Origin: Chiloscyllium plagiosum
Taxonomy: Eukaryota
Length of the DNA: 60,295 nucleotides
NCBI RefSeq assembly: GCF_004010195.1
Contig: NC_057759.1
Location: forward strand, 2,044,044-2,104,338
Direction of reading: 5' to 3'
Shown: piece by piece, positions 2,006-48,543 of the stretch
Layout: every line of letters begins with the position of its first letter
How positions within the stretch are numbered: the first letter of the stretch is position 1
Position numbers and translations under genes: made by a program
The notes under the pieces: generated by a model
The model's database searches: none
The model's input: only the letters and a program-made list of their open reading frames with translations
Told to the model about the DNA's origin: nothing

Positions 2006-2095
2006 CTGAAAATGTGTTGCTGGAAAACGCAGCAGGTCAGGCAGTATCTAAGGAGCAGGAGAGTCGACGTTTCGGGCATGAGCTCTTCTTCAGGA
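2006..2095 (-). mobile_element. Short PLE-derived insertion with minimal hammerhead motif and 15-bp flanking duplication
   Basis: ATGGTGTACCATTTG at 1991-2005 and 2096-2110; minus strand reads ATTC-CTGAAGA-AGAGCTCATGCCC-GAAACGTC-GACT. Confidence 0.75.
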
Positions 2096-2160
2096 ATGGT
2101 GTACCATTTGGCCATCCATAATTAACAGAAATCTTTCGAAGTGTAGATTTTACAACAGAT

Positions 2161-3343
2161 GGGTGGGCGGTGAGGACAAAGGGGGTTTGTCCTTATTGCG
2201 GTTGGGGGGCTGGGGTTCCAGGGCGGAGGTGCGGGACATGGATGAGATGCATTGGAGGGCATCTTCAACCACGTGGGAGGGGAAATTTCGGTCTTTGAAG
2301 AAGAAGGCTACCTGATGTGTTCTGTGGTGGAACTGGTCTTCCTGGGAGCAGATGCGGTGGAGGCGGAGGAATTGGGAATAGGGGATAGCATTTTTGCGAG
2401 AGGTAAGCTGGGAGGAGGTGTAATCCAGGTAGCTGTGGGAGTTGGTGGGTTTGTAAAAAAAAAAAGCTGTGTTGATTCGGTCCTCTTGGATGGAGATGGA
2501 GAGGTCTAGGAAGGGGAGGGAGGTGTTAGAGATGGTCCAGGTGAATTTAAGGTCAGGGTGGAATATGTTGGTGAAGTTAATTAAATGTTCGACCTCTTCC
2601 TGGAAGCATGAGGTGGCACCGATGTACTCATTAATGTAGCAGAGGAAGAGGTGGGGAGTGGTGCCAGTGTAACTCCAGAAGATGGACTATTCTTTGCAGC
2701 TGAAAAAGAGACAGGCATAGCTGGGACCCATGTGCATGTCCATGGCTACCCCTTTTGTCTGGAGGAAGTTGGAGGATTGGAAGGAGAAATTGTTGAGTGT
2801 AGTGGGAGATCACCTGAGGTGATGAGGTTGTGTATGGTTTGGGAGATGATGTTTTGCTGATGTGGTGTGAGGTCATGGTCGAGGGGGTGGTAGGATGCGG
2901 TGTCTTCGAATTGGCGCCTGGCTTCAGAAGTGTAGAGGTCAGTGTGCCAAACTATCACTGCACCCCCTTTGTCCACTGGTTTGATGGGGACGTTGGGGTT
3001 GAAGTGGAGGGGCTGCACGTTGTAAAGGCGAGAGGTTGGAGTGGGTGAGGCGGTTAATATCACGACGGCAGTTTGAAATGAAGAGGTCAAGGGTGGGTAG
3101 CAGGCCAGCACGGTGTCAGGTGGATGAGGTGTTTTGGACGTGGGAGAAGGAGTCTTTGGTGGGAGGGCGGTTGTCTTCATTGTAAAAGTAGGCACGGAGG
3201 CTGAGACTGCAGAAGAAACGTTCAAGGTTGCAGCATGTGTCAAGCTCATTAATGTGGGACGGTAGATGCCTTTACCGAGGACTAAATGTTCGTCCTCAGT
3301 GAGGAGGAGGTGGTCTGGGGAATGGTGAAGACACAGCAGGGAT
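2161..3343 (-). mobile_element. Degraded Penelope-like element (RT region)
   Basis: Minus-strand translation has IKPVDKGGAVIVW and QKG(V)AMDMHMGPSYACLF; clearly homologous to the PLE at 49229-50765. Confidence 0.85.
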
Positions 3344-3344
3344 G

Positions 3345-4086
3345 GGAGCTAGAGCCTGGAGTGGTGCTAGAGTTCACTATGGTCCTTTTGCATTTTGCAT
3401 AGTGCAGAATCTAACAGGGAGAAATGATATAAAAAGTTGGTCTTCAGAATGCCAAGAGTTTTTGTTTCAGTGCATAGTGATGTACTTTTATGAATTTGGT
3501 GAAGTAACAATCAGTGTAAACTGAATCCACTTGCAACGAAGTGAAAGTGCGATGAACAATTCAACTGCATTGGAGCTGACTGACCATAATGTTCCTTGTA
3601 TAGAAAAGATAGTTGGCTAATTTACTTCTATTTTCTGATGTAGACAGAACATTACCCTGCTCTGTAGTGAGATGATGCACCATTAGTAGTACTCTTACGT
3701 TGCTAAAGGACTTTTTTTTTTGTCATGCAGTGCAGAATATGTAAACTGCCAAATTCAATTTTATGGAACAATCAGCACTGTTCAATTCTGTTTGAAACTA
3801 AAATGAGCAGTTCTACAAACCTACCAATTTTGGCCCTTTCTCTCTCTTTCTCCACTGCTTTGAAGGGTGATTATTAAATTCCACTGATACATTGTGAAAA
3901 TTGCAGCCAGATTTCACGCTTTTTTTTTTAGATACATCCCAAGGAAGGGGAGGAGGAATGCAGAGCTCTTTGTAGAAAATTGCAATCAATTTTGAAAGAA
4001 GAACATAATTATCCAAAAAAAGAGAGTTTCTGGTTGGACTGAACTAGACAAAACAAAGTATTCTGAACTAGACAAAACAAAGTATT
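3345..4086 (-). pseudogene. Decayed large exon of the unidentified multi-copy gene (paralog of 37175 onward)
   Basis: Reverse-complement homology to ~37175-37810; pyrimidine tract plus AG acceptor at 4087-4115; shared peptides LSFLYKEHYGQSAPMQLNCS and ILKTNFLYHFSLLDSAL. Confidence 0.45.
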
Positions 4087-4088
4087 CT
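4041..4088. repeat. Perfect 24-bp tandem duplication
   Basis: GAACTAGACAAAACAAAGTATTCT twice. Confidence 0.9.
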
Positions 4089-4744
4089 ATTGCAATATGA
4101 AGAAATGGAGAATAATGATGTGATAAAGATGGGGATGGCAGCTCCTCTGCTACCATGATCCATTTATGTAAATGGATGCTGGCTGATCAGGATGAAAATT
4201 GTTAGCTGGTTGTTTCTGATCGATGCGGAATCAAAAGGTTTAAAGGGCCTGATTCTGTGCTGTAGGCCTCTCTGACAAGGGATCTGTGGGTAGAAATCAT
4301 TTTGAATGTAACATTTTGCAATGTCAATGGAACAACATGGCTGTTAGACATTGTAACGTGTATGGATGGAGTATGTTTTTGAAAGTCAGCATTAAGTCAG
4401 AGAGAGAGAGAAAGAGACTGTGTGTCTGTCTGTCTTTTGGGGGAGGGGGTGAGGGGGAAATGTTTGGTTACGTACCCACACATTAATCATTCTATGTCAG
4501 ACTTTGATACAAAATGTACACTTGGAATTCATATTATTTGATTGCTGTGTCTATATACATGACAAAAGATAAATTGTCATTCTCAGTTACTGATAGCTGA
4601 AATGTTTCCATCAATATCAATTTGTCCACAATATCTACTTTACACATGGTTGCTCAAAGTAATCGCATCAGCTATTTGTTCGCCTTGATTGTAATATTAA
4701 AACTATTGTTAATAAATGCAGACAATATAAAGATTGGTGAAATT

Positions 4745-6850
4745 GTGGGTAGTGTTAGATTTGGAAGTAGGTGAGCACTTTGGAGACTATGATCACAATT
4801 CATCAGATTTACCTTAGTGATGGAAAGGGATAGGTGTACTCCACCGAGCAAGAGTTACAGCTGGGGGAAGGGAAATTACGATGCAATTAGGAAAAATTTA
4901 GGAAGCGTAGAATGGGGAAGGAAACTGCAGGGGATGAGCACATTAAAAATGTGGAGCTTATTCAAGGAAAAGCTCCTGTGTGTCCTAGATAAGTATGTAC
5001 TTGTCAGACAGAGAGGATGGTATAGAACGCGTGAGCCGTGGTTTACTAAGGAAGTGGAATCCCTGGTCAAGAAGAAGAAGAAGGCTTATGTTAGGACAAG
5101 ATGTGAAAACTCAGTTAGGGTGCTTGAGGGTTACAAGGAAGTCAGGAAAGACCTAAAGAGAGCGCTCAGAAGAGCCAGGAGGAGACATGAGAAGTTGTTG
5201 GCAGATAGGATCAGGGTTAATCCTAAGGCTTTCCATAGGTATGTCAGGAATAAAAGAATGATGAGAGTTGAATTAGGGCTAATCAAGGATAATAGTGGGA
5301 AGTTGTACGTGGAGTCAGAGGAAGCACTAAATAAATATTTTTTGACAGTGCTCACTATAGAAAATGAAAATGTTGGCGAGGAAGATACAGAGATACTTGC
5401 ATCTAGACTAGAAGAGATTGAGGTTCACAAGGAAGAGGTATTAGAAATACTGCAGAGTGTGAAAATAGACAAGTCCCCTGGGCTGGGTGGGATCTATCCT
5501 AAGATCCTCTGGAAAGCAAGGGAAGAGATTGCCGAGCATTTGGCAGTAATCTTCAAATCATCATTGTCTACAGGAATAGTGCATAAGGACTGGAGGATAG
5601 CAAATGTGGTTCCTTTGTTCAAGAAGGGTAGTAGAGACAACCCAGGTAATTACAGACCAGTGAGTCTCACTTCAGTTGTTGGTAAAGGTTATAAGAGATA
5701 GGATTTATAACCATCTAGAAACTAATAATCTGATCAGGGACAGTCAGCTATATAAAATGCGGAGGAATGGGATTGTGGGAGACATAGCAGTTTGGATCAG
5801 TAATTGGCTTGCTGAAAGAAAACAGAGGGTTGTAGTTGATGGAACATGTTCATCTTGGTGTCCAGTTACTAGCGGTGTACGGCAAGGGTCGGTGTAGGGT
5901 TCACTGCTGTTGGTCATTTTTATAAATGACCTGGTTGAGGGCTTAGAAGGGTAGGTAAGTACATTTGCAGACGACACTAAGGTCGGTGGGAGTTGTGGAT
6001 AGTGACGAAGGATGTAGTAGGTTGCAGAGAGACATAGGATGCAGAGCTGGGCTGAGAGCTGGCAAATGGAGTTTAATGTGGACAAGTGTGAGGTGATACA
6101 CTTTGGCTGGAGTAATCAGAATGCAAATGACTGGGTTAATGGTAAGATTCTTGGGAGTGTAGATGAGCAGAGAGATCTCGGTGTCCATGTACACAGATCC
6201 CTGAAAGTTGCCACCCAGATTGACAGGGTTGTTAAGAAGGCATGCAGTGTTTCGGCCTTTATTAAAAGAGGGATTGAGTTCCGGAACCAGGAGGTTATGC
6301 TGCAGCTGTACAAAGCTCTGGTACGGCCACACTTGGAGTATTGTGTAAGGTTCTGGTCACCGCATTATAAGAAGGATGTGGAAGCTTTGGAAAGGGTGCA
6401 GAGGAGATTTAGTAGGATGTTGCCTGGTATGGAAGGAATGTCTTACGAGGAAAGGCTGAGGGCCTTGAGGCTGTTCTCATTAGAGAGAAGAAGGTTGAGA
6501 GGTGACTTAATAGAGACATACAAGATAATCAGAGGGTTAGATAGGGTGGACAGGGAGAGCTTTTTTCCAAGTATGGGGATGGCAAACATGACGGGACACA
6601 ACTTTAAAGTGAAGGGAGATAGGTATAAGACAGATGTCAGAGGTAGTTTCTTTACTCAGAGAGTAGTAAGCGTATAGAATGCTTTGCCTGCGACGGTAGT
6701 AGATTCACCAAGTTTAAGTGCAGTTAAGTCGTCATTGGACAGGCATATGGATGTACATGGGATAGTGGTGAGATGGGCTCAGATTAGTATGACAGGGCGG
6801 TGCAACATCGAGGGCCGAAGGGCCTGTACCGAGCTGTAATGTTCTATGTA
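4745..6850 (+). mobile_element. CR1 LINE ORF2 remnant (post-endonuclease linker, RT, 3' UTR), internally deleted and frameshifted
   Basis: ORFs 4817-5701 and 6039-6677 with KSPGLGGIYP, WRIANVVPLFKKG, NYRPVSLTSVVGK, FADDTK, WQMEFNVDKC, LVRPHLEYC. The QHGF...KAFD part of RT is missing near 5748. Ends in a ttctatgt-type tail. Confidence 0.95.
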
Positions 6851-7170
6851 GAAATTTGTCAAAGGATACAGCAGGAGATAGATCACTTGCAGATATGGGC
6901 GGAGAAATGACATTGAGTTTAATCCAGCAAAGTGTAAGATGCTGGACTTTGGGAGATCAAATGTTAAGGATAGATGCGCAGTAAATGGCTGGACTCAGAA
7001 GGATCTTGCGGTTCAAGTCTATAGCTCTCTGAAAGTGGCAAGTAGTTAGGGTGGTATCTAGAGGAAGGTGTCTGGCATGCTTGCCTTATTGATCGGGGAA
7101 TTGAGTACAAGAGTCAGGATGTCATACTGCAGCTTTATAAGACTTTGGTTCGGCCATACTTACAGTGTTG
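6851..7170 (+). mobile_element. Second CR1 RT fragment
   Basis: Degenerate W..EFNP.KC and LYKTLVRPYLQCC motifs. Confidence 0.75.
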
Positions 7171-7324
7171 TGACAAAAGATTAATTCTGTCCTTCTCCGT
7201 TACTGATAGCTGAAATGTTTCCTTCAATATTTGTACTAGCTATCTACTTCATATATAGTTGTTCAAACTAACAGCATTGTCTATTTGTTCACCTCGATTG
7301 TAATGTTAAAAGTATCCTTACTAA

Positions 7325-8087
7325 AGTACAGAACCCATGAGGACAATCTCAATCGGGACCTTAGGTTCCTGTCACAATGTACACTCTCTCGCTCACACAC
7401 ACACACTCATGCAGGCCCTCTCATCCACACATACATACACCCCCACACTCTCACCAATGCATGCACCCTCTCACAGGCTTATACTCTGTCACACTCATAC
7501 ACACTTTACCAAGCATCCATACACATATTTGCATGCGTACTCACATTCAAATGCTCTCTCTCTCACACACTCAAATGCTCTCAGTCTCTCTCATACATAC
7601 ACAAGTCTCTGGGGTGAATTTGCATTTGCAGAATTATATTTGCAAATACATTCTATTTTGCTCAAAAAGAGCACAATCTGCAGGCAGTCAATCCATGTAA
7701 TATTTTATAATTTCCTACTTTGGTAATAGGACCAGTCTGATTCAAGATTGGGATACAGACAGACTCTAACCTCACACCTATCTGAGTTGAGATGTCACCC
7801 TTCTTTTTCAATAAAACCCGAAGTCATCTTGAGAATGTGACTTAAAAGAAGTTCTTGGATGTATATATTAATGAACTGAAACCTGAAACCCATTCTAAAA
7901 GCTGAAATACTGAACAGCAATCTAGGTTTGTTCAATATATCATTTCAGTTGCATGACACTGTAATCTTTTGCAATAAATTCTGTGGCTCACGATTCTGTT
8001 TCACAGTTACCTGATGAAGGAGCAGCGATCTGAAAGATAGTACTTCCAAATTAACCTTCTGGACAATAATCTGGTGTTGTGATTTTT
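7325..8087 (+). mobile_element. PLE 3' end (GIY-YIG C-terminus, CA/CT microsatellite, pseudo-LTR with degenerate hammerhead)
   Basis: KYRTHEDNLNRDLRFLSQ resembles PLE endonuclease ends; (CA)n-rich 7380-7605; CTGATGA-AGGAGCAGCGATCT-GAAAGATA at ~8011-8040. Confidence 0.7.
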
Positions 8088-8262
8088 CAAATGTGGTTGC
8101 CACATTACAGGAAGGATGTGGAGGATTTAGAGAGGGTGCAGAAGAGGTTTGCCAGAATGTCGTCTAACAGGTATGAGCGACAAAGAGATGCTAGAAAAAC
8201 CCAAGTAGTTTTCTTCTGAGCAGCAGAGGCCGAGGACAGACTTAATAGAAGTCTATAAAATT

Positions 8263-8830
8263 GTAAGAGTTGTAGCTCAGGTTAAGGTTCTGGTTCTAGA
8301 TTTTCTCGCTGAGCTGGAAGGTTCATTTTCAGATGTTTTGTCACCATACTAGGTACCCTTATCAGTGAGCTTCCGGATGAATCACTGGTGGTATGGCCCG
8401 TTTTGTATTTATGTGTCCACTACATTTGACAAACAGGCAGAAAACAGGATCCATGAACATCAACTAGCCACAAAAAGACATGACCTACTCTCACTAGTAT
8501 CCTTACATACAGATAAGGAAGGACACCACTTCGACTGGGATAACACATTCATCCTAGGGCAAGTCAAACCAAGACGCACGAGAATTCTAAGAAGCATGGT
8601 ATTCCAACCGGAACTCCATCAACAAACAAACTTGTATCCCATTTACCACCTTGGGGAAAATGAACACTAAATGACATCACCACAGGAAATGACATCACCA
8701 ACCCAAGGAAACCTAAACATATAAACAGAAAGCAGGCCATACCACCAGTGCTTCATCCGGAGGCTGATTGATGATTACCTACAAAACGTTTGAAAGCAAA
8801 CCTTCTATCTCAGTGAGCAAACCCATATCC
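8263..8830 (+). mobile_element. Non-autonomous PLE with inverted termini and GIY-YIG remnant, inserted in a CR1 fragment
   Basis: RIHEHQLATKRHDLLSLVSLHTDKEGHHFDWDNT; CTCGCTGAGCTGGAAGGTT (~8305) inverted vs AACCTTCTATCTCAGTGAG (~8800); AGAAGTCTATAAAATT at 8247-8262 and 8831-8846. Confidence 0.8.
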
Positions 8831-8940
8831 AGAAGTCTATAAAATTATGAGATGTATGTTTAAGATAGATGGTCAGCACTTTTTTCCAAGAGCTGAAATT
8901 TCTAAAACTAAGAGGCGTGCATATAAGGTGAGACGAGGAA

Positions 8941-9331
8941 AGTTCAAAGGAGACCTAAGGACCTCTTTTAACGTAGAGAGTGGTAGGAGTGAAATGCACT
9001 GCCAGGGGTGGTGATGGAGGCAGATGCGATTTAAAAAGTATTGAGGGGGCATAAAAAATAAGCAAATTAACATGCAAAAAATTTGGGATATGGACCATGG
9101 GCAGGCAGAAGGGATTAAATTTCATTTGGCATCATGAGTTCAAAGGAGACCTAAGGACCTCGTTTAACGTAGAGAGTGGTAGGAGTGAAATGCACTGCCA
9201 GGGGTGGTGATGGAGGCAGATGCGATTAAAAAGTATTGAGGGGGCATAAAAAATAAGCAAATTAACATGCAAAAAATTTGGGATATGGACCATGGGCAGG
9301 CAGAAGGGATTAAATTTCATTTGGCATCATG
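8941..9331 (+). repeat. Near-perfect ~196-bp tandem duplication of a CR1 3' end
   Basis: Unit 8941-9136 repeated from 9137. Confidence 0.9.
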
Positions 9332-9699: not shown

Positions 9700-10094
9700 C
9701 TGGAGGAAGACAGAAGAGATACCTCTTGTAAATCAACATCAGCTGTGATTGGTAACATCAATGTAACATTCAGCCCATCTTGTCTGTGCCAACACCACCA
9801 AACCCAGGTGCTCTTTCTCATCCCACCATCCTGCCACAGCCGTAACCTTGCAGTTTACAACACTTGACGTGGAGTTCCAGGGAATGTTTGTTTAAAAAAA
9901 ATGTAAGGTCTCTGCCTGCACCCCCAAATAAGGCAGCGAATTCCAGATACCCATCACTCTCTCCATTTAAAAAAAAATTTTTCCTCATATCCTCAAATCC
10001 TACAACCACTGAGCTTGAATCGGTGATCCCTGGTTTTTGAACTCTGCCAAAGTAAACAGGTCCCTCCTGTCTAATGTCTCCCTCTCACTAGTTA

Positions 10095-10180
10095 GTTAAA
10101 AATCACACAACATCAGATTATAATTCAACAGGTTTATATGGAAGTGCAAGCTTTCGGAGTGCTGCTCCTTCATCAGGTAG
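10095..10180 (-). mobile_element. Short PLE-end insertion with intact hammerhead core (family B)
   Basis: Minus strand CTAC-CTGATGA-AGGAGCAGCACTCC-GAAAGCTT-GCAC at 10141-10180. Confidence 0.7.
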
Positions 10181-14094: not shown

Positions 14095-14396
<302 letters not shown>

Positions 14397-14428
14397 GAAT
14401 AAAGAGACCCATTTCCAGCGAACCCAAA

Positions 14429-14470
14429 GGCTCTTTTCAGAGCCACCCAAACCCTCCGATAGAGAGCGGA
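14429..14470 (+). terminator. Histone 3' stem-loop plus purine-rich downstream element (H4)
   Basis: GGCTCTTTTCAGAGCC (14429-14444) then ACCCA; AGAGAGCGG at 14461. Confidence 0.95.
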
Positions 14471-17490: not shown

Positions 17491-17714
17491 GAGAAAGCAG
17501 TAATACGTTACACTATTTGCCAGCCACTTAGAAATATTCCTGCAATCTGTGCCCTTAGGAGAGGGGAGGACGACAGATGCTGAGGATGAGAGGGTTTATG
17601 CCTGAAACACCGAGATGAAGGGCTTATGCCCGATACATTGACTCTCCTGCTTCCCGGATGCTGGCTGACCTGCTGTGCTTTTCCAGCACCACACTCTGTA
17701 CACCAATCAAAAAC

Positions 17715-19200
17715 TACACTTCCATATTCACAGATCAGAAACTGGCAGGTACAGATGGATAGGTGAAAGTGAGGACCGCAGATGCTGGAGATTAGAGTCA
17801 GGAGTGTGGTGCTGAAAAAGCACAGTAGGTCAGGATGCATCCAAGGAGCAGAAGAATTGAGGTTTTGGCTAAAAGCCCTTCATCAGTACAGATGGATAAC
17901 TAAATCATACATTCACATAGCAGAAACTGACAGGGAAAGATTGACAACCACACTCATGCATTCATGCTGCAGAAAGCAAAAAGTACATTTCAATACAGAC
18001 CCCCACACGTTTACTTGGCAGAAGATGGCAGGTAGATATTGATAACAATGTTCAAATTTTAACAATGCAGAAACTGACATGGACAGATTGATAATTAAAC
18101 AATCACATTCACAGAGCAAAAACTGTCATATTCACATAGCAGAAACCAACAGGTATGGGGTGATAACTTCACTCAAGTATGCATGTACAAGAATCTTATT
18201 GGGAGAAAGTAATACCTCTACTCGTATATTCAGTGAGTGGAAATCCACAGGTACAGGCAGATAACTTTACTTAAGTATGCACATTGCAGAACTGACAGGG
18301 AGAGTGTGACAACTGTACTCTCATATTCACGTGGCAGAATCTGCAAGTTGCAGATTGATATATAGGCTCTCATTGTAAGTATAAAATGGTTGGGCATATT
18401 CTCACTGGAGATCCCACCCCTGCTATTGGGGCAGCTCAGTGGTTAGCACTGCTGCCTCACAGCAATAGGGTCCCAGGTTCGATTCCACCCTTGGGTGACT
18501 GTCTGTGTACAGAAGCTCATATTCATAGGGTATGGGAGTGGAGGTGAGTCCTACCTGTGTCTGTCCAAAGTGGTATCCAGTACTTTCAAAGTTGTAGGTA
18601 CTACAGGAAACACATTCTTATGTCAATGGATGACACCTACAGAGTAAAAGAAGTTACACTTAAAAAGGTTTGAGTTACAGTCTAGTGACATGTACTACTG
18701 ACATGTAAAGACTGTGAAATAGGGTTTACAAAAATGCTTTACATCCCAGAAACAGATTTGTCCATCAGTCTCTGCAATTTGAATATGACTGTCTAGCTAT
18801 CTATCTCTCCCTGTCAGTTTCTGTGACGTGAAGATGACAGTCCATTTATCTATCTGCCCCGGTCAAATTCTGCTGTGTGAATATGAGTGTAATTATTAGT
18901 CTCTACCTGTCAGCTTTTGCTATGCCAATGCAATGTTCGTTATCAATCTGCCTCATTAGGTTCTATTGATATAGTTATCAACATATACCTGCCAGATTTT
19001 TCTCTGGAAATATGAGAGTGTATTATCAAAATGTACCTGTCTGTTTCTGGAATGTGAATGTGTTTGTGCAATCATCAGTCTATCCCTGACAGCTTCAACT
19101 ATATGTATGGATGAGAGCATCTGTACCTGAAAGTATCTGTACCTGTCAGTTTGTGCTCTGTGAATAAGTGAGTGTACTTATATATTTGTCTCTGTTAAAC
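17715..19200. repeat. Degenerate ~47-bp satellite (+ at 17715-18370, - at 18760-19200)
   Basis: Recurring CATTCACATAGCAGAAACTGACAGGTACAGATTGATAACTACACT-like units. Confidence 0.7.
17762..17885 (-). mobile_element. Short PLE-derived insertion with 13-bp flanking duplication
   Basis: GTACAGATGGATA at 17749-17761 and 17886-17898; degenerate CTGATGAAGGGCTTTT motif on minus strand. Confidence 0.75.
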
Positions 19201-20800: not shown

Positions 20801-21762
20801 TTTTAGGGGATTAATGGGCTGAATCTAACATCTGGTGCCTGTTCATTTCCTGGCACATTTCCCTTTCATTTAATGTGGCTGGAATTACTCGTTTATTAGA
20901 TCTTAGGTCTGCTAGTCAGAACTGTTTCAATTGGGAACAGGCTGGATCCTTTTTACTGTCCTCTGAGTGGGTTGTTCAATGGTATCATTATGCCTCAGTG
21001 TGTGTGAACAGGCTGATGTGCTTAGTTTCTGCCATTGTGTTTCACGTCCTGCTGTTTAATTCTACTTTCCACTTATCGGTCAGTTTGTGTTAACAGATAT
21101 GGGCCACTCTATTCTGGCAGGTACAGGCCACCCCCATAGTCTTTGACAAAGTCCCATATAAAAGACTGGTCTAAGATTGGCTCTTGGAGTCTTATGCAAA
21201 CTGAATCTGAAATTAGTTTGCAGACAGGATGCAAAGTGTGATTGTGATGGGTTGTGTTTGTGATTGGAAGACTGTGACCAGCGGTGTCCCACAGGGATCA
21301 GTGCTGGGACCCTTGCTGTTATGTACATTAACGACTTGGATGTGAATGTAGAAGGTACGATTACTATGTTTCTGGATGAGATTTTAGTGTGGAAGTGCAA
21401 AATAATGTGTTGGTGCAGGCTTGGAGGACAAAGGGCATGTGACTGTGCTGTACTGTTCTTTCTTCTTCGACATGAAAATTGGCAGCACTGTTGACAGTGA
21501 CAGGGTGGTCTCAGACTAGTGAGTACCACCGGCAGAACACTGGCTCTGATATTCGTGATAAGTGTGAGATAATGCATTTTCGGAGGTCTAACAAGGGAAA
21601 GAATTACACAATGAAGGGTAAGTCCCTAGGTTGTACTGAGGAACAGAGGGACCTTGGTATACAAGTCTATAGATCCCAGAAGGAAACAGCACAGGTGGAC
21701 AGGCTGCTGAAGGAGGCACACAGAATGCTGGCTTTTATTACCTGAGCTGTACAATTGAAAAG

Positions 21763-21972
21763 GAGAAAGTGAGGTCTGCAGATGCTGGAGATCAAAGTTG
21801 AAACTTTATTGCTGGAACAGCACAGCAGGTCAGGCAGCATCCAGGGAACAGGAGATTCGACGTTTCGGGCACAGGCCCTTCTTCAGAAGAAGGGCCTGTG
21901 CCCGAAACGTCGAATCTCCTGTTCCCTGGATGCTGCCTGACCTGCTGTGCTGTTCCAGCAATAAAGTTTCAA
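21763..21972. mobile_element. Young PLE-derived palindromic element with hammerhead motif
   Basis: 88-bp arms (21797-21884 / 21886-21973) around one base; CTGTACAATTGAAAAG at 21747-21762 and 21973-21988. Confidence 0.9.
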
Positions 21973-22739
21973 CTGTACAATTGAAAAGCAAGGCGCTCTT
22001 AGGACAACTTTATAGAACATTGATTAGGCCACAGATGGAATACTGTGTGCAGGTCTGGCTGCCACCTTATCAGAAGGATGTGATTGTACTGAAGAGGGTG
22101 CAGTGGGCTGGAATGTCTACATTCTGAGGCAAGACTGGATAGGCTGAGTTTTGTTTCCTTGGAGCAGAGGAGGCTGAGGGAGGATCTGACTGAAGAATAC
22201 CAAATTATCAGAAATGTAGGCAGAGTAGATTGAGAGAATCTTTCTCCCCGTGACCAATGTGTCTAAGTCCAGAGGGCACCAGTTGAAGTTGAGGAGAAAA
22301 CAGCTGAGAGGAAATGTGAGAAAAATATTTTGACCCAGAGGGTGGGTAAAGTTTGGAACATTCTGCCTGAGAGGGTGGTTGGGTACTCACACATCATTTA
22401 AGCAGCATTTGGACATGCCTTTAAAAAGCCAGGGTATAGTCAGCTAGGGGCCAAGGGCAGGTAAATGGGACGAATGTAGTTTGGTGTTTGTTGGAAATGG
22501 TGGTCCAAAGGGTCTGTTTCTATGCTGTATGACTATATCTCTATAACATCCTTGTAAATCTTTACTGTACCACCTTAAGTTTAACAACATCCTTCTTGTA
22601 GCAGGTTGATGAGTGGATTCACCAATGTCCTGCACAGCCACCAGATGACCTCCGAACTCCTACACTCAGTATTCTGAAAATGAAGACAAGCACTCCAAAT
22701 GTCTTTTTCACTACCCTATCTATCAGCAACTACTTTCTT

Positions 22740-22910
22740 GGAAGTGCCAGTGTTGGAATCGGGTGGACAAAGTGAAAAATGACAACACCAGGTTTTCATC
22801 CAACAGGTTTATTTGGAAACACTAGCTTTTGAAGCACTGTACCTTCATCAGGTGGTTGAAGGACGAACAATGCTTTGAAAGTTAGTGCTTCCAAATAAAC
22901 CTGTTGGAGT
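22740..22910. mobile_element. Family-B PLE-derived imperfect palindrome (mirror at ~44800-44970)
   Basis: CCAACAGGTTTATTTGGAA...TTCCAAATAAACCTGTTGG arms; degenerate CAC-CTGATGA...AAAAGCTA-GTG. Confidence 0.7.
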
Positions 22911-23615
22911 ACATTCAAGGAAATCTTCACCGGCACACTGAGGTTTCTTAGTTCAGCAACACTCCCCAATGCCATACCATTAAGTGTGGAATTCGTGCCT
23001 TGGTTTGCCTTCTCAAAATGTATGTAAACTAAACTACAACTGCCACTCCTCAGCACACTGACCCACCTGACAAGAGGTATAGTTAGTAAGTATGCACATG
23101 ACACCAAAATTGGAGGCGTAATGGACAGCAAAGAAGATTACCTCGGATTACAACAGGATCTTGCTCAGATGGGCCAATGGGCTGAGAAGTGGCAGATAGA
23201 GTTTAATTTAGATAAATGTGATGTGCTGCATTTTGGGAAAGCAAATCTTAGCAAGACTTATAAACATAATGATAAGGTCCGAGGGAGTGTTGCTGAACAA
23301 AGAGACCTTGGAGTGTAGGTTCATAGCTCCTTGAAAGTGGAGTTGCAGGTCAATATGATAGTGAAGGTGGCGTTTGGTATGCTTTCCTTTATTGATCAGT
23401 GAATTGATTACAGGAGTTGGAAGATCATGTTGCGGCTTTACAGGATATTGGTTAGGCCACTGTTGGAATATTGCATGCAAATCTGGTCTCATACCTATTG
23501 GAATGATGTTGTAAAAGTTGAAGGGGTTCAGAAGAGATTTACAAGGATGTTGCCAGGGTTGGAGTATTTGAGGTATTGGGAGAGGTTGAATACGCTTAAG
23601 GCTGTTTTCGGAGGG

Positions 23616-28869: not shown

Positions 28870-29055
28870 GTCCACATTCGAGTGGTGCTGGAAAAGCACA
28901 GCAGGTCAGGCAGCACCTGAGGAGCAGGAAAATCGACGTTTTGGGCAAAAGCCTTTTGCCCGAAACATCGATTTTCCTGCTTCTCGCATGCTGCATGAAC
29001 TGCTGTACTTTTGAAGCACCACTCTGATCTCCAGCATTTGCAATACCCACCTCTG
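28870..29055. mobile_element. PLE-derived imperfect palindrome, centre deleted
   Basis: GAGTGGTGCTGGAAAAG...GGGCAAAAG / CTTTTGCCC...AGCACCACTC arms. Confidence 0.75.
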
Positions 29056-32810: not shown

Positions 32811-32980
32811 AGGAGAAAGTAAGGACTGCAGATGCTGGAGATCAGAGCTTAAAAATGTGTTGCTGGAAAAGCGCAGCAGGTCAGGCAGCATCAAAGGAGT
32901 AGGAGAATCGACGTTTCGGGCATAAGCTGAAGAAGGGCTTATGCCCAAAATGTCGATTCTCCTTCTCCTTTGAAGCTGCC
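32811..32980. mobile_element. PLE-derived partial palindrome with 14-bp flanking duplication
   Basis: TGACTTTGTTTGGT at 32797-32810 and 32981-32994. Confidence 0.8.
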
Positions 32981-32999
32981 TGACTTTGTTTGGTCCCAA

Positions 33000-33590: not shown

Positions 33591-33602
33591 ACTTTAAATT
33601 GT

Positions 33603-34109
33603 GGCAAAAGTGAGGACTGCAGATGGTGGAGATCAGAGTCAAGATTAGAGGGTTGCTGGAAAAGCACAGCAGGTCAGGCAGCATCCGAGGAGCCGGAAAA
33701 TCAATGGTTTGGGCATTCCTTCATCAGGCATAAGGTTGGGAGCCTCCAGGATGGAGAGATAAAAGGGAGTTGGGTGTGTGTGTCCTGGGGAGAAAGTAGT
33801 TCAGAGTTTAATAGATGGATGGAGGTGGGGATGAAGGTGATAGGTCAGAGAGGAGGGTGGAGCGGATAGGTGTGAAGGAAAATTGGCAGGTCGGACAGGT
33901 CATGAGGATGCTGCTGAGCTGACAGGTTGGAACTGGTGTAAGGTGGAGGGAGGGGAAATGAGGAAACTGGTGAAGTTCACAAAGTTGATTTTAAGCATAC
34001 TGCAAAACCTTTTGTAAGGATGCCTACCTTGAAGAAGTTCTCCCCCTCTCTCTATAAAGATCTCAGTGAGTCTCTCTCTCACTGCAACCCCTATATCATC
34101 TCCTCTGCC
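33603..34109 (-). mobile_element. PLE 3' end insertion with 16-bp flanking duplication
   Basis: CTGAACT(T/C)TAAATTGT at 33587-33602 and 34110-34125; pseudo-LTR sequence shared with 48113-48333. Confidence 0.78.
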
Positions 34110-39389: not shown

Positions 39390-39890
39390 CTCAGTCACAC
39401 AGCAGAAACTGACAAGTATAGATCAATTCCAAAACTCTCCTACGGGCAAAACAGAAACTGACAGGTGTAATTGATAGCTGCTCTCACATATTCACTCTGC
39501 AGAAACTGAAAGGGAGAGAATGATACATAAATATCCATGCGCACATGCACGCCCGTGCACACACATGTGACTAAGCTAACACATTTACTTAGCAAACACT
39601 GGCATCTATAGTCTGCTTAATGTATTTGCACATTTATAAAGTAGATGTTGACAAATATAGATTCATAACTCCATCCTGAGATACACAGAGCAGAAATTAA
39701 CAAGGACAGATTGAACAATCACACTCACATGGCAGGACATTTCAGAGGAAGACTGATAACTACATTCTCATCATCAAAACTTATTGGAACAGATTAATAG
39801 CATTCCCTGTTTCAAATCGCATTAATTGACATGTACAGTTTGATAATGACACTCATGTTTACAGCACAGAAACTGACAGGTAGAAATTAA
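39390..39890 (+). repeat. ~47-bp satellite array (continues 40670-40930)
   Basis: GCAGAAACTGACA(G/A)GTA units. Confidence 0.65.
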
Positions 39891-39891
39891 T

Positions 39892-40665
39892 AACGAAAAT
39901 TGCTGGAAAATCACAGATTTGGCAGCATTGGTGGAGGGAAATCAGACTTAACATTTGAGGTCTAGTGACCCCTCCTCAGAACTGATTATGTGCATTTTCC
40001 TACCATTTGGTGTTCTCATTGCTGGGGAAAATGAGTGTAGATTGGGTGTCCATTGTGCAGAAAACCTACATTCTGTCCAGAATCATGTCCCTGAGCTTCT
40101 CGTAGAATGCCACTTCAACACACCACCCTGTACCCCGGCCAACATCTCTGTCTCAGGCTTGCTGCAGTGCTCCAGCAAAGTTCAGCGCAAGCTGGAAGAA
40201 CAGCACCTGATTTTCTGCTTAGGAACTCAACAGCCTTCTGGACTCAATATTGAATTCTAAAACTTTAGAGCTAGAGCTCTCCCATATCATTACCCAAAAC
40301 CCCTCTCACCACACAGTGTTATCACAGGGTCTTCTATTGTACACCAAAACTCACTAACAGTCTCTATTAATACCTATTACAATCCTCTTCTGACTGTGAT
40401 CCACTAGTTTATCTGTCCAACTGTTCTTCCCTCTCTGGATTCTAGATGCATTCACCATTTACTCCCTTACCCTTCAACACACCCTGTCCTCTGCAGAAAA
40501 TCTAATATTTTCCTGGCTACCATCTCTTCACAGGAAGGTTTACTGGACTGGAAATTTTAACTATGATTTCTGTCCACAGTCTCTGACAGACCTGCTGAGC
40601 TTTTCCAGCAATTTGTTTTAGTTTCTGATTTCCAGCATCTGCAGTTCTTTTGGTTTTCATTTAGA
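39892..40665 (+). mobile_element. Non-autonomous PLE with inverted termini and GIY-YIG C-terminus
   Basis: ENLHSVQNHVPELLVECHFN...QRKLEEQHLIFCLGTQQPSGLNIEF; AATTGCTGGAAAA (~39900) inverted vs TTTTCCAGCAATT (~40600). Confidence 0.78.
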
Positions 40666-41989: not shown

Positions 41990-43215
41990 TATGTTCATAT
42001 AGCAGAATCTGAGGGGTACAGAGTGATAACTACAGTCACACATACTGACAGGAAAAGATGAATAAATCCACTCAAAACACTGGAATTACAGGGCCTGACA
42101 GGGTAATATTGATAATTAAACTCTCTCATTCACAAAGCAGAAGCTGATAGCAACAGGGGAAACCTCAGCTCACACATTCACATAGCAGGGATAGATTGAC
42201 AATTACATAAACATATTCACCAAGCAGAAACTGACAGCTACAGATTGATAACTATATTTATGTATTCATGCAACAGAGTCTGAAAGGTACAGATTGAGTT
42301 ACACTCACTTTGTCAAAGAAGAAATTGACAGGTAGAGAATGATAACTGTACTCCCACATTCACATCGCTGAAACAGACCACTACAGTTTGATTAATACAC
42401 CCATATTCACAGCAGAATCTGATGGGTACTGATCAATAACTGTATTCACATATTGACAGGAAATAAACTGACAGGGACAGGTTGGTATCGACTCTCTCAA
42501 ATTGATGTAGTAGAAACAGATTGACAATGACACTCTGGTGTCAATAGCAAAACCTGACAGGTACTGTTTGATAATTGCATTCACACATTGGTATAGCTAA
42601 AGCAGACAAATAGAGATCAATGTCTACATTCACACAGAAGAAACTGATGGGTACAATTTGATGATTGCATTTAATATTCATACAGCAGAAACTGACGGGT
42701 AGATACTGATAATGACACTCACGTTCTCATAGCTGAAACTGACAGGTTCAGGTTGATAACTACACTCTCAGATACACATTAGAAACTTTTCAGATTGGTA
42801 TGTAAACTCACACATTCACAGGGCAGAAACTGACAGGTACATATTAATGACTAAACTCTCACATCCCCATCAGTTAAAACACACAGGGAATGATTTTATT
42901 TACTTAAAATGTATTTAACAACCAGTCCCTGCAAGTTTATTGTGTTTGGATATATAAGTTTAGTTATCAATCTATATCTGTTAGTTTATGCTATGTGAAT
43001 GTATGAGTGTAGTTATTAATCTGTCCTTGTCAGTCTCTGCAATGCCAAAATGTAAATATATTTACTAGAGTGTGACAGGGACAGATTGATAACTACATTT
43101 ACTCACACATTTGCACAGTTTATTTTAACAGGTACAGGTTGACAGCTGTACTCCCACATTCACCTCACTGGAACTGACAGGTATGGCTTGATAAGGAAAC
43201 TCTCACATCCAGATA
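41990..43215 (+). repeat. Longest ~47-bp satellite array
   Basis: Over 20 degenerate CACATTCACA..GCAGAAACTGACAGGTA.AG.TTGATAACTAC units. Confidence 0.75.
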
Positions 43216-43466
43216 CGCACTTGGGTAACCCTATTGTGGAGGTATTGGTTAGTATCTGGTTCTCAGTGAATTGGTATAGATATTTTTATTACAATCACCA
43301 AAGAGCAGCTCAGGCCAAGAATAGAATCAGACCTGTAGTTCTGTTGGACTTGCCAGTTTGAAAGAAAAACAGCCTAATGATTATTAAATGAATGTTACAT
43401 TCAAAGGTTTGATATTGTCAAACTTAATGTTGATTTACAGGAGATGTCTCTTCTGTCTTCCTCCAG

Positions 43467-43729: not shown

Positions 43730-46570
43730 TAGAGTCATAGCTTTACACAGCACCGAAACAGACACTTCAGCTGGACTCATCCATGCCAACCAGCTATCCT
43801 GAACTAATCCAGTCTCATTTGCCAGCACATGGCCCATATCCCTCTAAACCCTTCCTGTTCTTGTATCCATCCAGGTGCCTTTTAAATGGTGTAATTGTAC
43901 TAGTCTCCACCAATTTCTCTGGCAGCTCATTCTATACACACACTACGCCACATTGAAAAAATTGCCCTCCAGATCCCCTTTAAATCTTCCCCTCTAACCT
44001 TAAGCCTATGCCCTTTCGCTCTGGACTCCCCTACCCAAGGGAATAAATGTTGTTTATTTATCCTCTCCATAGCTCTCATGATTTTATAAACCTCTATTAG
44101 GTTACCCCTCCGAAAACAGCCTTAGGCCTATTCAACCTCTCCCGATACCTCAAATACTCCAACCCTGGCAACATCCTTGTAAATCTTTTCTGAACCCCTT
44201 CAAGTTTTACAATATCTTTCTGATAGGTAGAAGACCAGAATTGCATGCAATATTCCAACAGTGGCCTAACCAATGTCCTGTACAACCGCAACATGATTTC
44301 CCAACTCCTGTAATCAATTCACTGACCAATAAAGGAAAGCATACCAAACCTCCTTTACTATCCGATCAACCTGCCACGCCATTTTCAAGGAGCTATGAAC
44401 CTGCACTCCAAGGTCTCTTTGTTCAGCAACACTCCTTAGGGCATTATCATTAAGTGTCTAAGTCCTGCTAAGATTTGCTTTCCCAAAATGCAGCACCTCA
44501 CATTTATCTAAATTAAACTCCATCTGCCACTTCTCAGCCCATCTGATCAAGATCCTGTTGTAATCCGAGGTAATCATCTTCACTGTCCATTACACCTCCA
44601 ATTTTGGCGTCATCTGCATAATTACTAACTATACCTCTTGTCAGGTGGGTCAGTGGGCTGAGGAGTGGCAGTTGTCGTTTAGCTTACATACATTTTGAAA
44701 AGGCAAACTAAGACATGAATTCCACACTTAACGGTAGGGCATTGGGGAGTGTTGGTGAACTAAGAAACCTCAGTGTGCCGGTGAAGATTTCCTTGAATGT
44801 ACTCCAACAGGTTTATTTGGAAGCACTAGCTTTCAAAGCACTGTTCCTCTTTCAACCACCTGATGAAAATCAGTGCTTCAAAAGCTAGTCTTTCCAAATA
44901 AACCTGTTGGACGAAAACCTGGTGTTGTCATTTTTCACTTTGTCCACCCGAGTCCAACACTGGCATCTCCAGGTCCATGAAAGTAGCTGCAGATAGACAG
45001 GGCAGTGAAGAAGGCATTTGGCGTGCTTGCCTTCATTGTTCAGAATATTGAGTGTAGGAGTTCGGAGGTCATCTGGTGACTGTGCAGGATATTGGTGATT
45101 GTGTACACTTTTAGGAGATTGTGTACAATTCTCATCAACCTGCTGCAGGAAGAATGTTGTTAAACTTGAGGTGGTACAGTAAAGATTTACAAGGACGTTA
45201 TAGAGATATAGAGTTGTACAGCATAGAAACAGACCCTTTGGCCCACCATGTCCATGATGTTCAACAAACACCAAACTGCATTCATCCCATTTACCTGCAC
45301 TTGGCTCATAGCTGACTATACCTTGGCTTTTTAAATGCACGTCCCGATGCTGCTTAAATGCTGTGAGAGTACTCAATTACCCTCTCAGGCAGAACGTTCC
45401 AAACTTTACCCACCCTCTGGGTTAAAATATTTTTCTCACATTTCCTCTCAGCTGTTTTCTCCTCAACTTCAACTGGTGCCCTCTGGACTTAGACACATTG
45501 AGAGAATCTTTCTCCCCGTGACCAATCTACTCTGCCTACATTTCTGATAATTTGGTATTCTTCAGTCAGATCCTCCCTTAGCCTCCTCTGCTCCAAGGAA
45601 ACAAAACTCAGCCTGTCCAGTCTTGCCTCATAAAGGAGACTTTCCAACCCACTGCACCCTCTCCAATACAATTGCATCCTTCTGATAGGGTGGCAGCCAG
45701 ACCTGCACACAGTATTCCATCTGTGGCCTAATCAATGTTCTATAAAATTGTAGGAGAAAGTGAGGACTGCAGATGCTGGAAATCAGAGCTGAAAATGTGT
45801 CACTGGAAAAGCAACCTGCTGCAGGAAGGATGTTGTTAAACATGAGGTGGTACAGTAAAGATTTGACCTGCTGCGCTTTTCCAGCAACACATTTTCAGCT
45901 CTATAAAATTGTAATAAGACTTCCTTTCTTTTAAATTGTACAGCTCAGGTACTAAAGACCAGCATTCTGTATGCCTTCTTCAGCAGCCTGTCTGCCTGAG
46001 TTGTTTCCGTCTGGGATCTATAGACTTGTATACCAAGGTCCCTTTGTTCCTCAGTACTCCCTTGGGACTTACCTTTCATTGTGTAATTCTTTCCCTTATT
46101 AGACCTCCTAAAATACATTATATCATACTTTTCAGGAATATCAGAGCCATTGTTCTACCGGCTGTACTCCTACTGTAGCCTGACACCGTCCCCTTCGCTG
46201 TCAACAGTGCTGCCAATTTTCATGTCGAAGAAGAAAGAACAGTACAGCACAGGCCCTTTGCCCTCCAAGCCTGCACCAACACATTTCGCACTTCCACACT
46301 AAAATCTCATCTACAAACATAGTAATTGTACCTTCTGCATTCACATCCAAGTCGTTAATGTACACAATGAACAGCAAGTGTCCCAGCACTGATCCCTGTG
46401 GGACACCGCTGGTCACAGGCTTCCAATCACAAACACAACCCATCACAATCACACTTTGCATCCTGTCTGCAAACTAATTTCAGATCCAGTTTGCTTAAGA
46501 CTCCAAGAGCCAATCTTAGACCAGTCTTTTATATGGGACTTTGTCAAAGGCTATCGGAGTTGCCTGTACC
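43730..46570. mobile_element. Nest of CR1 fragments (mirror of 21100-23612)
   Basis: ORFs 44097(-), 45489(-), 46201(-) with CR1 RT motifs (SGVPQGSVLGHLLFIVYINDLD). Confidence 0.82.
45753..45899. mobile_element. PLE-derived palindromic element whose centre is replaced by a copy of nearby DNA
   Basis: TCTATAAAATTGTA at 45739-45752 and 45900-45913; arms AGAGCTGAAAATGTGT / ACACATTTTCAGCTCT; 45812-45864 matches 45136-45188. Confidence 0.8.
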
Positions 46571-47634
46571 TGCCAGAATAGAGTGGCCCATATCTGTTAA
46601 CACAAACTGACCGATAAGTGGAAAGTATAATTAAACAGCAAAATGTGAGAGACAATGGCAGAAACTAAGCACATCAGCCTGCTCACACACTGAGGCATAA
46701 TGATTCCATTGAACAAGCCACTCAGAGGACAGTAAAAAGGACCTAGCCTGTTCACATTCGAAACAGTTCTGACACGCAGACCTAAGGTCTGAGAAACAAG
46801 TAACTCCAGCCACATTAAATGAAAGGGAATTGTGCCAGTAAATGAACAGGCACCAGATGTTAGATACAGCCCATTAATCCCCTAAAACAACTGAGGGGGC
46901 AACAGCTAGAGTTATCTTATACTACTCAGTTTCGTAACTGTATGACTTTACACATTTTAACTAACTTTAAGAGAAATCAAAGTTACAAATTTATAGCAAG
47001 TAATGCAAAATTAACTGTTTTCTGTTTTTTCTTCATATACAATAAGGACCATGGGGCATGTAAGAAGAGCAATAGAATTTGATTAAAATTAAATACAATG
47101 AATAACAGCATTCAGGATGTCCCACAAGATAAGCGAGACTGACAGAAGCCCGAAGCAGTGTAGCAAGTAACTCTGGAATGTGAACAAATAGGAGACATAG
47201 AAAGATCCCAAGGCTCAGAGATTACAGTATCTGCTAATCACCTTCAGATCATGTTAACCAGGAGCTGTCCAATGGATGCCCATCATTGATTAGGTGTCTC
47301 ATAGGATAGGGTATGCAAAGTAAGAAGAAGGAACATATAAATCACATTGTATGTGATTGTTCACAGAAAGTGTACAATAAATACTGCTTTTTTAATTGTA
47401 AAATCAGAGTGTGCCATGGCGCTCACCTCCGAGGCCAATCTCAGGGGAAGATCCTTTGGCACTCTCCCGGCATTAACTGGTTTCTGGTTGAAGAAACACC
47501 TACCACTTGCCTGAATCCTCCCTGCTTCCTGAGTCTTTCTTCTTTGGTCGGTGGTTACGCTCCTTCAAAGGCCTTTTTGTTGTCCATGTAAACTATATCA
47601 ACTGCACTACTCCCATCAGTACATTTCGATGCCA

Positions 47635-48092
47635 GAACTAGAGGATTTGAGTTATGGGGAGAGGCCGAATAGGCAGTGTTTTTTTTTTATCCCTGGACTG
47701 TCTGAGGCTGAGGTATGACCTTATTGAGGTTAATAAAATCAAGAGTGACATTGAGAGGGTGAATATGCAAGGTCTTTTTTCTAATGCTGGAGAGTCCAAT
47801 AATAGAGGGCAAAGGTTTAAGTTGAGATGGAAAAGATTTAAAAAGCATGTGTGGGGTTACTTTATCATTGCCGAGGGTGGTGCTTGTATGGAATGAGCGA
47901 CCAGAGGACGTGGAGGTGGTGGGTACAATTACAATTTTTTGTAGGCACCTGGATTGGTACATGAATAGGAAGGGTTTATAGGGCGACAGACCAAATGCTG
48001 GCAAATGGGACTTGGTCAGATTAGGATCTCTGGTCAGCACTAACAACTTGGACCAAAGGACCTGTTTCTGTGCTGTATAACTGTATGACACT
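47635..48092 (+). mobile_element. CR1 3' fragment
   Basis: LRLRYDLIEVNKI...RGQRFKLR and 3' UTR. Confidence 0.85.
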
Positions 48093-48112
48093 CTGAAGGC
48101 CAGACCTTGATA

Positions 48113-48543
48113 TCACTACTCTGGATCAGTGGTGCTGGAAGAGCACAGCAATTCAGGCAGCATCCGAGGAGCTTCGAAATCGACGTTTCGGGCAAAAGCC
48201 CTTCATCAGGAATAAAGGCAGAGAGCCTGAAGCGTGGAGAGATAAGCTAGAGGAGGGTGGGGGTGGGGATAGAGTAGCATAGAGTACAATAGGTCAGTGG
48301 GGAAGGAGATGAAGGTGATAGGTCAGGGAGGAGAGATGGCCTCTTGCAAAAATGCCATCCCGTATTCCCAATTCCTCCGCCTCCGCCGTATCTGCTCCCA
48401 GGAGGAGCGGTTCCACCATAGAACACACCAGATGGCCTCCTTCTCTAGAGACCGCAATTTCCCTTCCCACGTGGTTAAAGATGCCCCCCAACGCATCTCA
48501 TCCACATCCCGCAATTCCGCCCTCAGACTCAACCCCTCCAACC
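48113..48543 (-). mobile_element. PLE pseudo-LTR (minus, 48113-48333) joined to an inverted ORF fragment (plus, 48334-48543)
   Basis: The plus fragment (ASCKNAIPYSQFLRLRRICSQ) is the reverse complement of ~49384-49585. Confidence 0.85.
48177..48214 (-). ncRNA. Minimal type-I hammerhead ribozyme motif, core intact
   Basis: ATTC-CTGATGA-A-GGGC-TTTT-GCCC-GAAA-C-GTC-GATT: both conserved boxes, stem II, palindromic ACGT in place of stem III, GUC cleavage triplet. Confidence 0.7.

What the first reader, a model, noticed from the sequence alone, without database searches (positions are those of the whole stretch)
2062..48214. Several families of minimal hammerhead-ribozyme motifs in Penelope-derived elements
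Seen: family A, ATTC-CTGA(T/A)GA-A-GGGC-n4-GCCC-GAAACGTC-GA(A/T)T, with core boxes present at 48177-48214(-), 21854-21889(-) and 2062-2097(-), degenerate at ~17612, ~17860, ~28950, ~32925, ~52800. Family B, CAC-CTGATGA-A-GGAG-n5-CTCC-GAAAGCT(A/T)-GTG, at 10141-10180(-), degenerate at ~8011, ~22840, ~44860. More decayed candidates lie at ~8330-8368(-) and ~39950-39982(-). The families differ in stems I and II yet keep both catalytic boxes and a 4-nt palindrome (ACGT vs AGCT) instead of stem III, which looks like covariation. Established: PLE pseudo-LTRs carry minimal type-I hammerheads thought to cleave as dimers. Inference: at least two, perhaps four, ribozyme-bearing lineages coexist here, and some short copies may still self-cleave. 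The extra A after CUGAUGA and the short stem I make activity uncertain.
Basis: partly seen in the sequence, partly recalled or inferred. Interest (0 to 1): 0.7.

Follow-up and report, generated by a model that had tools for sequence, protein, structure and literature searches.

The report
Shark Penelope stubs carrying minimal hammerheads
These motifs are real copies of the tiny self-cutting-RNA (hammerhead) motif already known from Penelope-like jumping genes, present over 100,000 times in a likely shark genome, mostly as short decaying stubs whose front ends pile up just before the motif, likely at the element's transcription start rather than at its predicted cut site.

Summary
The motifs are at the stated places and are minimal type-I hammerheads of Penelope-like element (PLE) pseudo-LTRs, a class published in 2014. 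Four lineages occur in the window and at least eight in the genome. Exact cores number 87,506 (A) and 17,799 (B), with 0 control matches. Covariation across lineages is clear (70 of 72 pairs), and one lineage swaps C3-G8 for U3-A8. The extra base after CUGANGA is a hallmark of the class, not a defect.

Single copies look like neutrally decaying insertions. About 22% keep an intact core. Half of the short copies sit head to head, and the window's example is predicted to fold into a long hairpin that buries the motif. Self-cleavage by this window's copies is therefore unlikely; it was not assayed.

Beyond the finding: 164 of 258 family-A copies start within -12..+5 of C3, and only 6 at the scissile bond. 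A T/A-rich box lies 30-32 nt upstream of the start peak in A and B. The stubs were likely copied from uncut RNA running off its 5' end. A cap-derived G and a cut-site footprint were not confirmed. Earlier scan notes report the same on other DNA, including this genome.

The parts
48178..48213 (-). Family A1 minimal hammerhead, intact core (C3 48209; predicted scissile bond 48182/48181), in the 3' pseudo-LTR of a long PLE insertion
48120..50835 (-). 5'-truncated, internally rearranged Neptune-type PLE: RT 50835-49250, inserted 21-nt tandem repeat, inverted RT piece 48340-48543, pLTR 48335-48120; about 17-bp target-site duplication with one mismatch. Part of the interior reads N, so its endonuclease was not seen in this copy
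   Evidence: duplication read by eye from the printed flanks
21761..21974 (-). Family A3 fold-back stub: intact core at 21886(-) and inverted partner at 21884(+), 16-bp target-site duplication; predicted perfect hairpin, stem II probability 0
2007..2097 (-). Family A2 stub from -4 to about +90, 15-bp target-site duplication, stem II mismatch; an independent insertion, not the pLTR of the RT fragment at 2150-3364
17761..17886 (-). Decayed family A stub (G12 lost), 13-bp target-site duplication
17575..17693 (+). Decayed family A stub with two partial motifs 32 nt apart; segmental duplicate of 52735-52855(-)
52735..52855 (-). Duplicate of the 17575-17693 stub
28881..29023 (.). Family A fold-back stub truncated inside the motif; neither arm has the CUGANGA box
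32811..32986 (.). Family A2 fold-back stub, 14-bp target-site duplication; + arm lacks G12, - arm lacks CUGANGA
33602..33981 (-).
10094..10180 (-). Family B stub, both boxes intact (C3 10176), stem I 1 bp, outer stem II pair mismatched; 7-bp exact flank duplication
7788..8087 (+). Family B pLTR with decayed motif (C3 8011). A short stretch at about 7330-7390 resembles a PLE endonuclease C-terminus by eye only
22738..22911 (-). Decayed family B fold-back stub; duplicate of 44800-44971(+)
44800..44971 (+). Duplicate of the 22738-22911 stub
8290..8834 (.). Family C (Poseidon-type): inverted decayed motif (C3 8365, -), endonuclease-like fragment 8353-8670(+), direct pLTR 8717-8834(+)
39890..40644 (.). 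Family D: inverted decayed motif (C3 39979, -), endonuclease fragment 40009-40248(+), decayed direct pLTR near 40530-40644(+)

Best explanation
These are minimal type-I hammerhead motifs in the pseudo-LTRs of several endonuclease-bearing Penelope-like retrotransposon families, and most copies are short, decaying insertions that were likely reverse-transcribed from uncut element RNA and ran off its 5' end at a likely transcription start 4-8 nt before the motif. Shown: the motif lies a few hundred bases 3' of an RT plus GIY-YIG ORF; the stems covary between lineages; stubs carry target-site duplications, two preferred 3' ends about 35 nt apart and a 5' pile-up at the motif's front edge. Taken from the literature: such motifs cleave weakly as dimers or with help from the element's protein, and reverse transcription primes internally at the tail. 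Inferred: a pLTR promoter starts the transcript just before the motif; priming on the tail nearest the 5' end gives 90-130-nt stubs; selection for the fold acts on master elements, not on single copies.
For: PLE link: RT (RVT_1); a GIY-YIG with CxxC and two histidines precedes family A (Pfam GIY-YIG E=0.0013, below the curated cut-off); endonuclease or RT homology upstream of some B, C, D and E copies. Lineage-level constraint: 70 of 72 pairs in 8 family majorities, shuffle mean 47.0, 0 of 100,000 reach it; stem I, which lay outside the search patterns, pairs in 23 of 24 cells with 3 Watson-Crick types at each position. 1,201 of 1,281 family-F matches are U3-A8. Decay: core 56/1343 vs tail 281/4696 non-CpG mismatches; core CpG 23/134; 59 of 269 intact. 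Stub anatomy: duplications of 8 bp or more in 25 of 102 non-inverted stubs vs 0.4% of mismatched flanks; 116 of 218 have an inverted partner. 5' ends: 164 of 258 at -12..+5, 6 at +28. Genome-wide, 10,800 intact cores have a non-templated purine just before -4, vs 2,655 just before C3. TTATC lies 30-32 nt before the A peak and TATAA 30-32 nt before the B peak at -8. Read depth from related organisms falls to about a fifth across the same boundary on two references. PMC11167929 reports internal priming, uncut RNA as the dominant substrate and protein-assisted cleavage.
Against: No transcription start was mapped: the one RNA run with reads is poly(A) single-cell data under another organism label, and shows no pile-up of molecule ends. 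The cap-G sign is not confirmed: G:A is 1.83 before -4 but also 59:41 at the control position (first 100 listed, counted by eye), and only 5 of 28 non-inverted stubs have G (p=0.74). About 6 of those 28 look like older subfamilies with a divergent upstream region, and two of six references reached only to -4 or -5, so the pile-up is somewhat overstated. The peak is broad, and B has a second peak at -3/-2 (7 vs 8 copies, n=57). TTATC is not a canonical TATA box, and the Drosophila Penelope promoter is TATA-less and internal. I found no clean full-length element with two intact pLTRs: L161 has motifs 3,118 nt apart but unrelated DNA after the first.
Confidence: 0.62

Rival explanations
1. Same elements, but the 5' pile-up is a processing or structural stop, not a promoter: the RT stalls or switches template after unwinding the motif, or the endonuclease resolves the intermediate at the ATT just before the core.
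For: Half of the stubs end in fold-back junctions (116 of 218). The Anolis enzyme prefers 5'-ATT-3', which is the sequence at -4. No cap-G was confirmed.
Against: The offset differs between families (-4 in A, -8 in B) while the distance to the upstream T/A box stays 30-32 nt. B has no ATT at -8. Non-inverted stubs show the same peak.
Confidence: 0.2
2. The motifs cut element RNA into monomers that circularise and are copied round the circle (the model of Cervera and De la Pena 2014), so copies cross the joined cut site and include the whole motif.
For: Lineage-level covariation shows that the fold is selected. There is a small excess of starts at +28: 4 of 102 non-inverted stubs vs about 0.5 per neighbouring position, and 703 vs 250 and 492 genome-wide.
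Against: It does not explain why copying stops 4-8 nt past the motif. Two of the four +28 cases are ambiguous. The genome-wide excess is only 1.4-2.8-fold and is confounded by the CpG at that site. It may hold for long copies without explaining the stubs.
Confidence: 0.12
3. The stubs are a self-propagating ribozyme SINE or retrozyme whose copies still cleave host transcripts.
For: Very high copy number, about 177 family-A copies per Mb (269 in 1.52 Mb); target-site duplications; copies present in poly(A) RNA of a related organism.
Against: Stubs lack the upstream box and have variable ends. They are not in tandem arrays. The core decays like the tail. The fold is not predicted to form in 3 of the 4 best window copies.
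Confidence: 0.05
4. Chance resemblance to a hammerhead.
For: Rfam gives no hammerhead match.
Against: 95 vs 1 descriptor hits; compensatory changes in stems I, II, III and at 3-8.
Confidence: 0.01

Closest known systems
Minimal hammerheads (min-HHR) of metazoan PLE pseudo-LTRs, Cervera and De la Pena 2014 (PMC4209133; parts 1-2 of 4 read; supplements not seen)
   Same: Type-I topology, no helix III beyond a palindrome at 15.2-16.2, an extra base between 9 and 10.1, G10.1-C11.1, short helix I, many families per genome, mostly solo copies, a U3-A8 variant family, opposite-strand pairs.
   Different: Host likely a shark (not among the hosts in the parts read). Copy number is over ten times the 4,000-9,000 reported for coelacanth and Xenopus. 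Stem II is only 4-5 bp in A and B. That paper does not map copy ends.
Poseidon of Anolis carolinensis, Frangieh et al. 2024 (PMC11167929; parts 1-2 of 4 read)
   Same: Two internal priming sites give the tail; uncut RNA is the main template; no RNA ends at the cut site.
   Different: Family A is Neptune-type. The 5' pile-up of genomic stubs is not described in the parts read.
Neptune and Penelope/Poseidon clades as defined in Craig et al. 2021 (PMC8557442; passages read)
   Same: C-terminal GIY-YIG with CCHH; CX2-5CxxC linker in A; inverted 5' copies; 30-40-bp tail.
   Different: No tree was built; clade names rest on motifs.
Non-LTR retrozymes (bioRxiv 10.64898/2026.07.22.740005; part 1 of 5 and passages read)
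   Same: Non-coding, PLE-derived, type-I hammerhead; one chondrichthyan genome was sampled there.
   Different: Retrozymes are head-to-tail tandem units; these are solo or head-to-head stubs.
Chrysanthemum chlorotic mottle viroid plus-strand hammerhead with A10 (review PMC3705267; passages read)
   Same: Extra base between A9 and G10.1; A lowers the rate moderately and U raises it. Here the base is A in 77 and U in 15 of 95 motifs.
   Different: That ribozyme has a full stem III and works as a monomer.

Membership tests
PLE minimal hammerhead | CUGANGA and GAAA boxes around a stem II with G10.1-C11.1 | tested here: met
PLE minimal hammerhead | Extra nucleotide between 9 and 10.1 | tested here: met
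   94 of 95 motifs
PLE minimal hammerhead | Palindromic 15.1-16.1 in place of helix III, H at 17 | tested here: met
   ACGU and AGCU; 8 of 8 family majorities pair at 15.2-16.2, one as U-G from 3 decayed copies
PLE minimal hammerhead | Short helix I with covariation between families | tested here: met
   23 of 24 cells, 3 pair types per position
PLE minimal hammerhead | Lies in the pLTR of an RT + GIY-YIG element | tested here: met
   A; B, C, D, E; F and G not linked in my sample
PLE minimal hammerhead | Self-cleavage as a dimer or with protein | not testable with these tools
   folding only; RNA runs cannot show such ends
Neptune clade (family A) | CX2-5CxxC linker between RT and endonuclease, CCHH in the endonuclease | tested here: met
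   translations; definition
Neptune clade (family A) | RT groups with named Neptune elements in a tree | not tested
   no named reference set was held
Penelope/Poseidon clade (family C) | No linker zinc finger | tested here: inconclusive
   only fragments seen; the label rests on recalled likeness of the endonuclease
Non-LTR retrozyme | At least two consecutive head-to-tail units with complete motifs | tested here: not met
   no such array in the window
Canonical (Rfam) hammerhead | Match to an Rfam hammerhead model | tested here: not met

The most novel reading that the evidence does not exclude
Vertebrate Neptune-type PLEs start transcription 4-8 nt before their hammerhead from a promoter supplied by the upstream pLTR, so the ribozyme is the first 35 nt of the RNA. 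Internal priming on the 5' tail of uncut RNA then makes several hundred thousand run-off stubs, and the genome records the start site and the rarity of cleavage for each family.
Probability: 0.5. Interest if true: 0.5.

Novelty: new member of a known kind. Interest (0 to 1): 0.3.

Why it matters
The motif class and its features are published, so the finding as written is ordinary. Its value is as material. One genome holds over 100,000 exact cores in eight covarying families, including a natural C3-G8 to U3-A8 swap. The role of PLE hammerheads is described as unclear, and the copy ends here give a testable prediction: start at -4 or -8, mostly uncut template. Whether any of the roughly one in five intact copies cuts host RNA is open.

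Tried and rejected
Rfam scan: no hammerhead match.

6,979 G vs 3,821 A before -4, but 59:41 at a control position and 5 of 28 in non-inverted stubs. In B, 6 of 6 non-templated bases are G, but 4 are at fold-back junctions.

Cut-site footprint: inconclusive.

RNA evidence: no RNA holder was listed. X21 laid 0 reads (no test). X20 and the contig runs show no pile-up of ends, which these libraries could not be expected to show. The loose ends at -4 partly reflect subfamily differences upstream.

Full-length two-pLTR element: not found among 11 long RT loci. A first motif regex missed family A through a length error and was redone.

The RT fragment at 2150-3364 as parent of the 2097 motif: rejected, since the stub has its own 15-bp duplication.

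Literature: searches for shark PLE hammerheads or for start-site stubs gave no paper on the point (one search gave 0). The library lacks most subscription papers. Lunse et al. (RNA Biol 14:1499) is not held and is known to me only by its title in a reference list. The supplements of PMC4209133 were not opened and may list shark motifs.

No flanking DNA was obtained for the genome-wide C, D and F matches; their context comes from the 1.6-Mb sample only.
Full report
Setting. The window is repeat-rich animal DNA with histone sequences, in a 3.56-Gb assembly. The RT of a family-A locus has its best named relatives in Chiloscyllium (88%), Mobula and Stegostoma, so the host is likely a shark. Positions below count from C3 of the hammerhead as 0; the predicted scissile bond is +27/+28 in family A.

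Observation. All listed motifs are present. A descriptor requiring both boxes, a stem II of 3 bp or more and the 4-nt palindrome finds 3 motifs in the window (shuffles 0.1) and 95 in 1.6 Mb from eight other regions (reversed control 1). Exact genome-wide counts are A 87,506, B 17,799, C 13,687, D 374 and F 1,201, each with 0 control matches. Copy-level corrections are in the observation check. Two pairs of listed copies are segmental duplicates.

What they belong to. In loci found with the window's RT, the family-A motif follows the ORF on the same strand, a few hundred bases after a GIY-YIG domain with CxxC and two histidines, itself preceded by a CxxxxCxxC linker. Pfam GIY-YIG scores E=0.0013, below its cut-off. 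By the definitions in Craig et al. 2021 (passages) this is Neptune-type. Endonuclease or RT homology also lies upstream of some B, C, D and E copies. In the window, 50835-48120(-) is one truncated, rearranged insertion with a flank duplication. C and D show the inverted pLTR, endonuclease fragment, direct pLTR layout typical of PLEs.

Covariation. Majority motifs of eight families (137, 28, 24, 17, 21, 7, 3 and 3 copies) pair in 70 of 72 cells; shuffles average 47.0 and none of 100,000 reaches 70. Stem II was partly built into the patterns, and the families are related, so this is not a probability. Stem I was outside the patterns and pairs in 23 of 24 cells with three Watson-Crick types at each position. 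Family F carries U3-A8 in 1,201 of 1,281 matches to a pattern allowing either base. This is selection on the fold in the masters. Cervera and De la Pena 2014 (parts 1-2 of 4) already report these features: the extra base, the palindrome, multiple families, a U3-A8 family, and low activity only as dimers. The extra base is also known from a viroid hammerhead (review passages).

Single copies. Of 327 tail-anchored family-A hits, 269 reach +36 or further 5', and 59 of those keep core, stem II and palindrome; the 58 dropped are mostly relatives sharing only the tail. Among 135 copies spanning the motif, non-CpG core positions differ at 4.2% and tail positions at 6.0% (p=0.01, but the tail includes subfamily-diagnostic columns), while core CpG positions differ at 17%. 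B gives 5.9% and 9.4%. This fits neutral decay. 116 of 218 short copies have an inverted partner directly upstream. For the window's fold-back copy the predicted structure is a -186 kcal/mol hairpin with stem II probability 0. Stem II probability is 0.08 for the B copy and 0.05 or less for the 2093 copy. For the 48209 copy it is 0.99 in a 95-nt context and about 0.3 with upstream sequence, with stem I near 0. The dimer fold without stem I scores -18.9 against -24.6 kcal/mol for the best alternative. Self-cleavage by these copies is unlikely without protein help; it was not tested.

Where copies begin and end. Of 258 family-A copies (11 more set aside for adjacent N), 38 run past -15, 164 start at -12..+5 with a peak at -4/-3, and 6 start at +28. 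3' ends cluster near +125 (81) and +86..+92 (62), the two-ended tail. Flank duplications of 8 bp or more occur in 25 of 102 non-inverted stubs against 0.4% in controls, and in five window stubs (7-16 bp). Genome-wide, 10,800 intact cores have a non-templated purine just before -4 and 2,655 just before 0. Depth in runs from related organisms drops across the same boundary on two references. For B (57 of 62 kept) 22 run upstream, 8 start at -9/-8 and 7 at -3/-2. A T/A-rich box lies 30-32 nt before the peak in both families. Caveats: older subfamilies with divergent upstream sequence and two short references inflate the A peak, and B is a small sample.

Mechanism. Frangieh et al. 2024 (parts 1-2 of 4) show internal priming at two tail sites, uncut RNA as the main substrate, and cleavage only with protein. 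Schostak et al. 2008 (passages) show that transcription starts inside the upstream pLTR, though from a TATA-less internal promoter in Drosophila. Put together (inferred): the RNA starts just before the motif; priming on the 5' tail runs off after 90-130 nt and gives stubs; priming on the 3' tail gives long truncated copies. Stubs keep the whole motif because the template was uncut. I put this at about 0.6, a processing stop at 0.2 and a circle-based account at 0.12.

Against my reading. The cap-G sign did not hold against controls. A cut-site excess is small and confounded. No RNA data could map ends. No clean two-pLTR element was found.

Prior work. I saw the pile-up before looking up earlier notes. 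Those notes report the same on other DNA, including two in this genome; they are unchecked AI notes and not independent support. They gave me the TATA-spacing, extra-G and cut-site leads, tested above. Paper searches found no report of the pile-up, within a library that lacks most subscription papers.

Verdict. Real, a new member of a known kind, interest 0.3.

Noticed in passing
window 14424-14469(+), 15521-15566(-), 26663-26708(+), 27972-28017(+), 15592-15945(-): Four histone 3' stem-loops and an H2A frame that lacks its start; looks like a broken-up histone cluster or pseudogenes.
   Followed up: no
window about 16-26 kb vs 40-53 kb: Large inverted segmental duplication, 88-94% identical in blocks of 1-1.7 kb.
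   Followed up: partly
window 45752-45950: The duplicate of the 21761-21974 fold-back stub keeps its outer arms but has lost the palindromic centre with both motifs.
   Followed up: partly
G000:C1:3027919-3027948(-) and 1,200 other places: Family F with U3-A8 core, G.U at 10.2-11.2 and a 6-bp stem I; its coding partner was not found.
   Followed up: partly
L091-L263 sample: Family C2 has a fixed mismatch inside stem II and is among the commonest C-type matches.
   Followed up: no
window 48997-49228: 11 copies of a 21-nt tandem repeat inside the PLE ORF, after the RT thumb.
   Followed up: no
window 17900-19200, 23900-24600, 42100-43300, 52000-52340, 58330-58440: Dispersed decayed 49-nt satellite-like repeat.
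   Followed up: no
L057, about 1430-1530 in motif orientation: A family-B stub joined directly to an inverted family-A stub, which suggests switching between the two families' RNAs or insertion of one into the other.
   Followed up: no
window 13876-14283, 35403-35899, 53640-54018: Three copies of an unidentified GC-rich repeat of about 300-400 nt.
   Followed up: no
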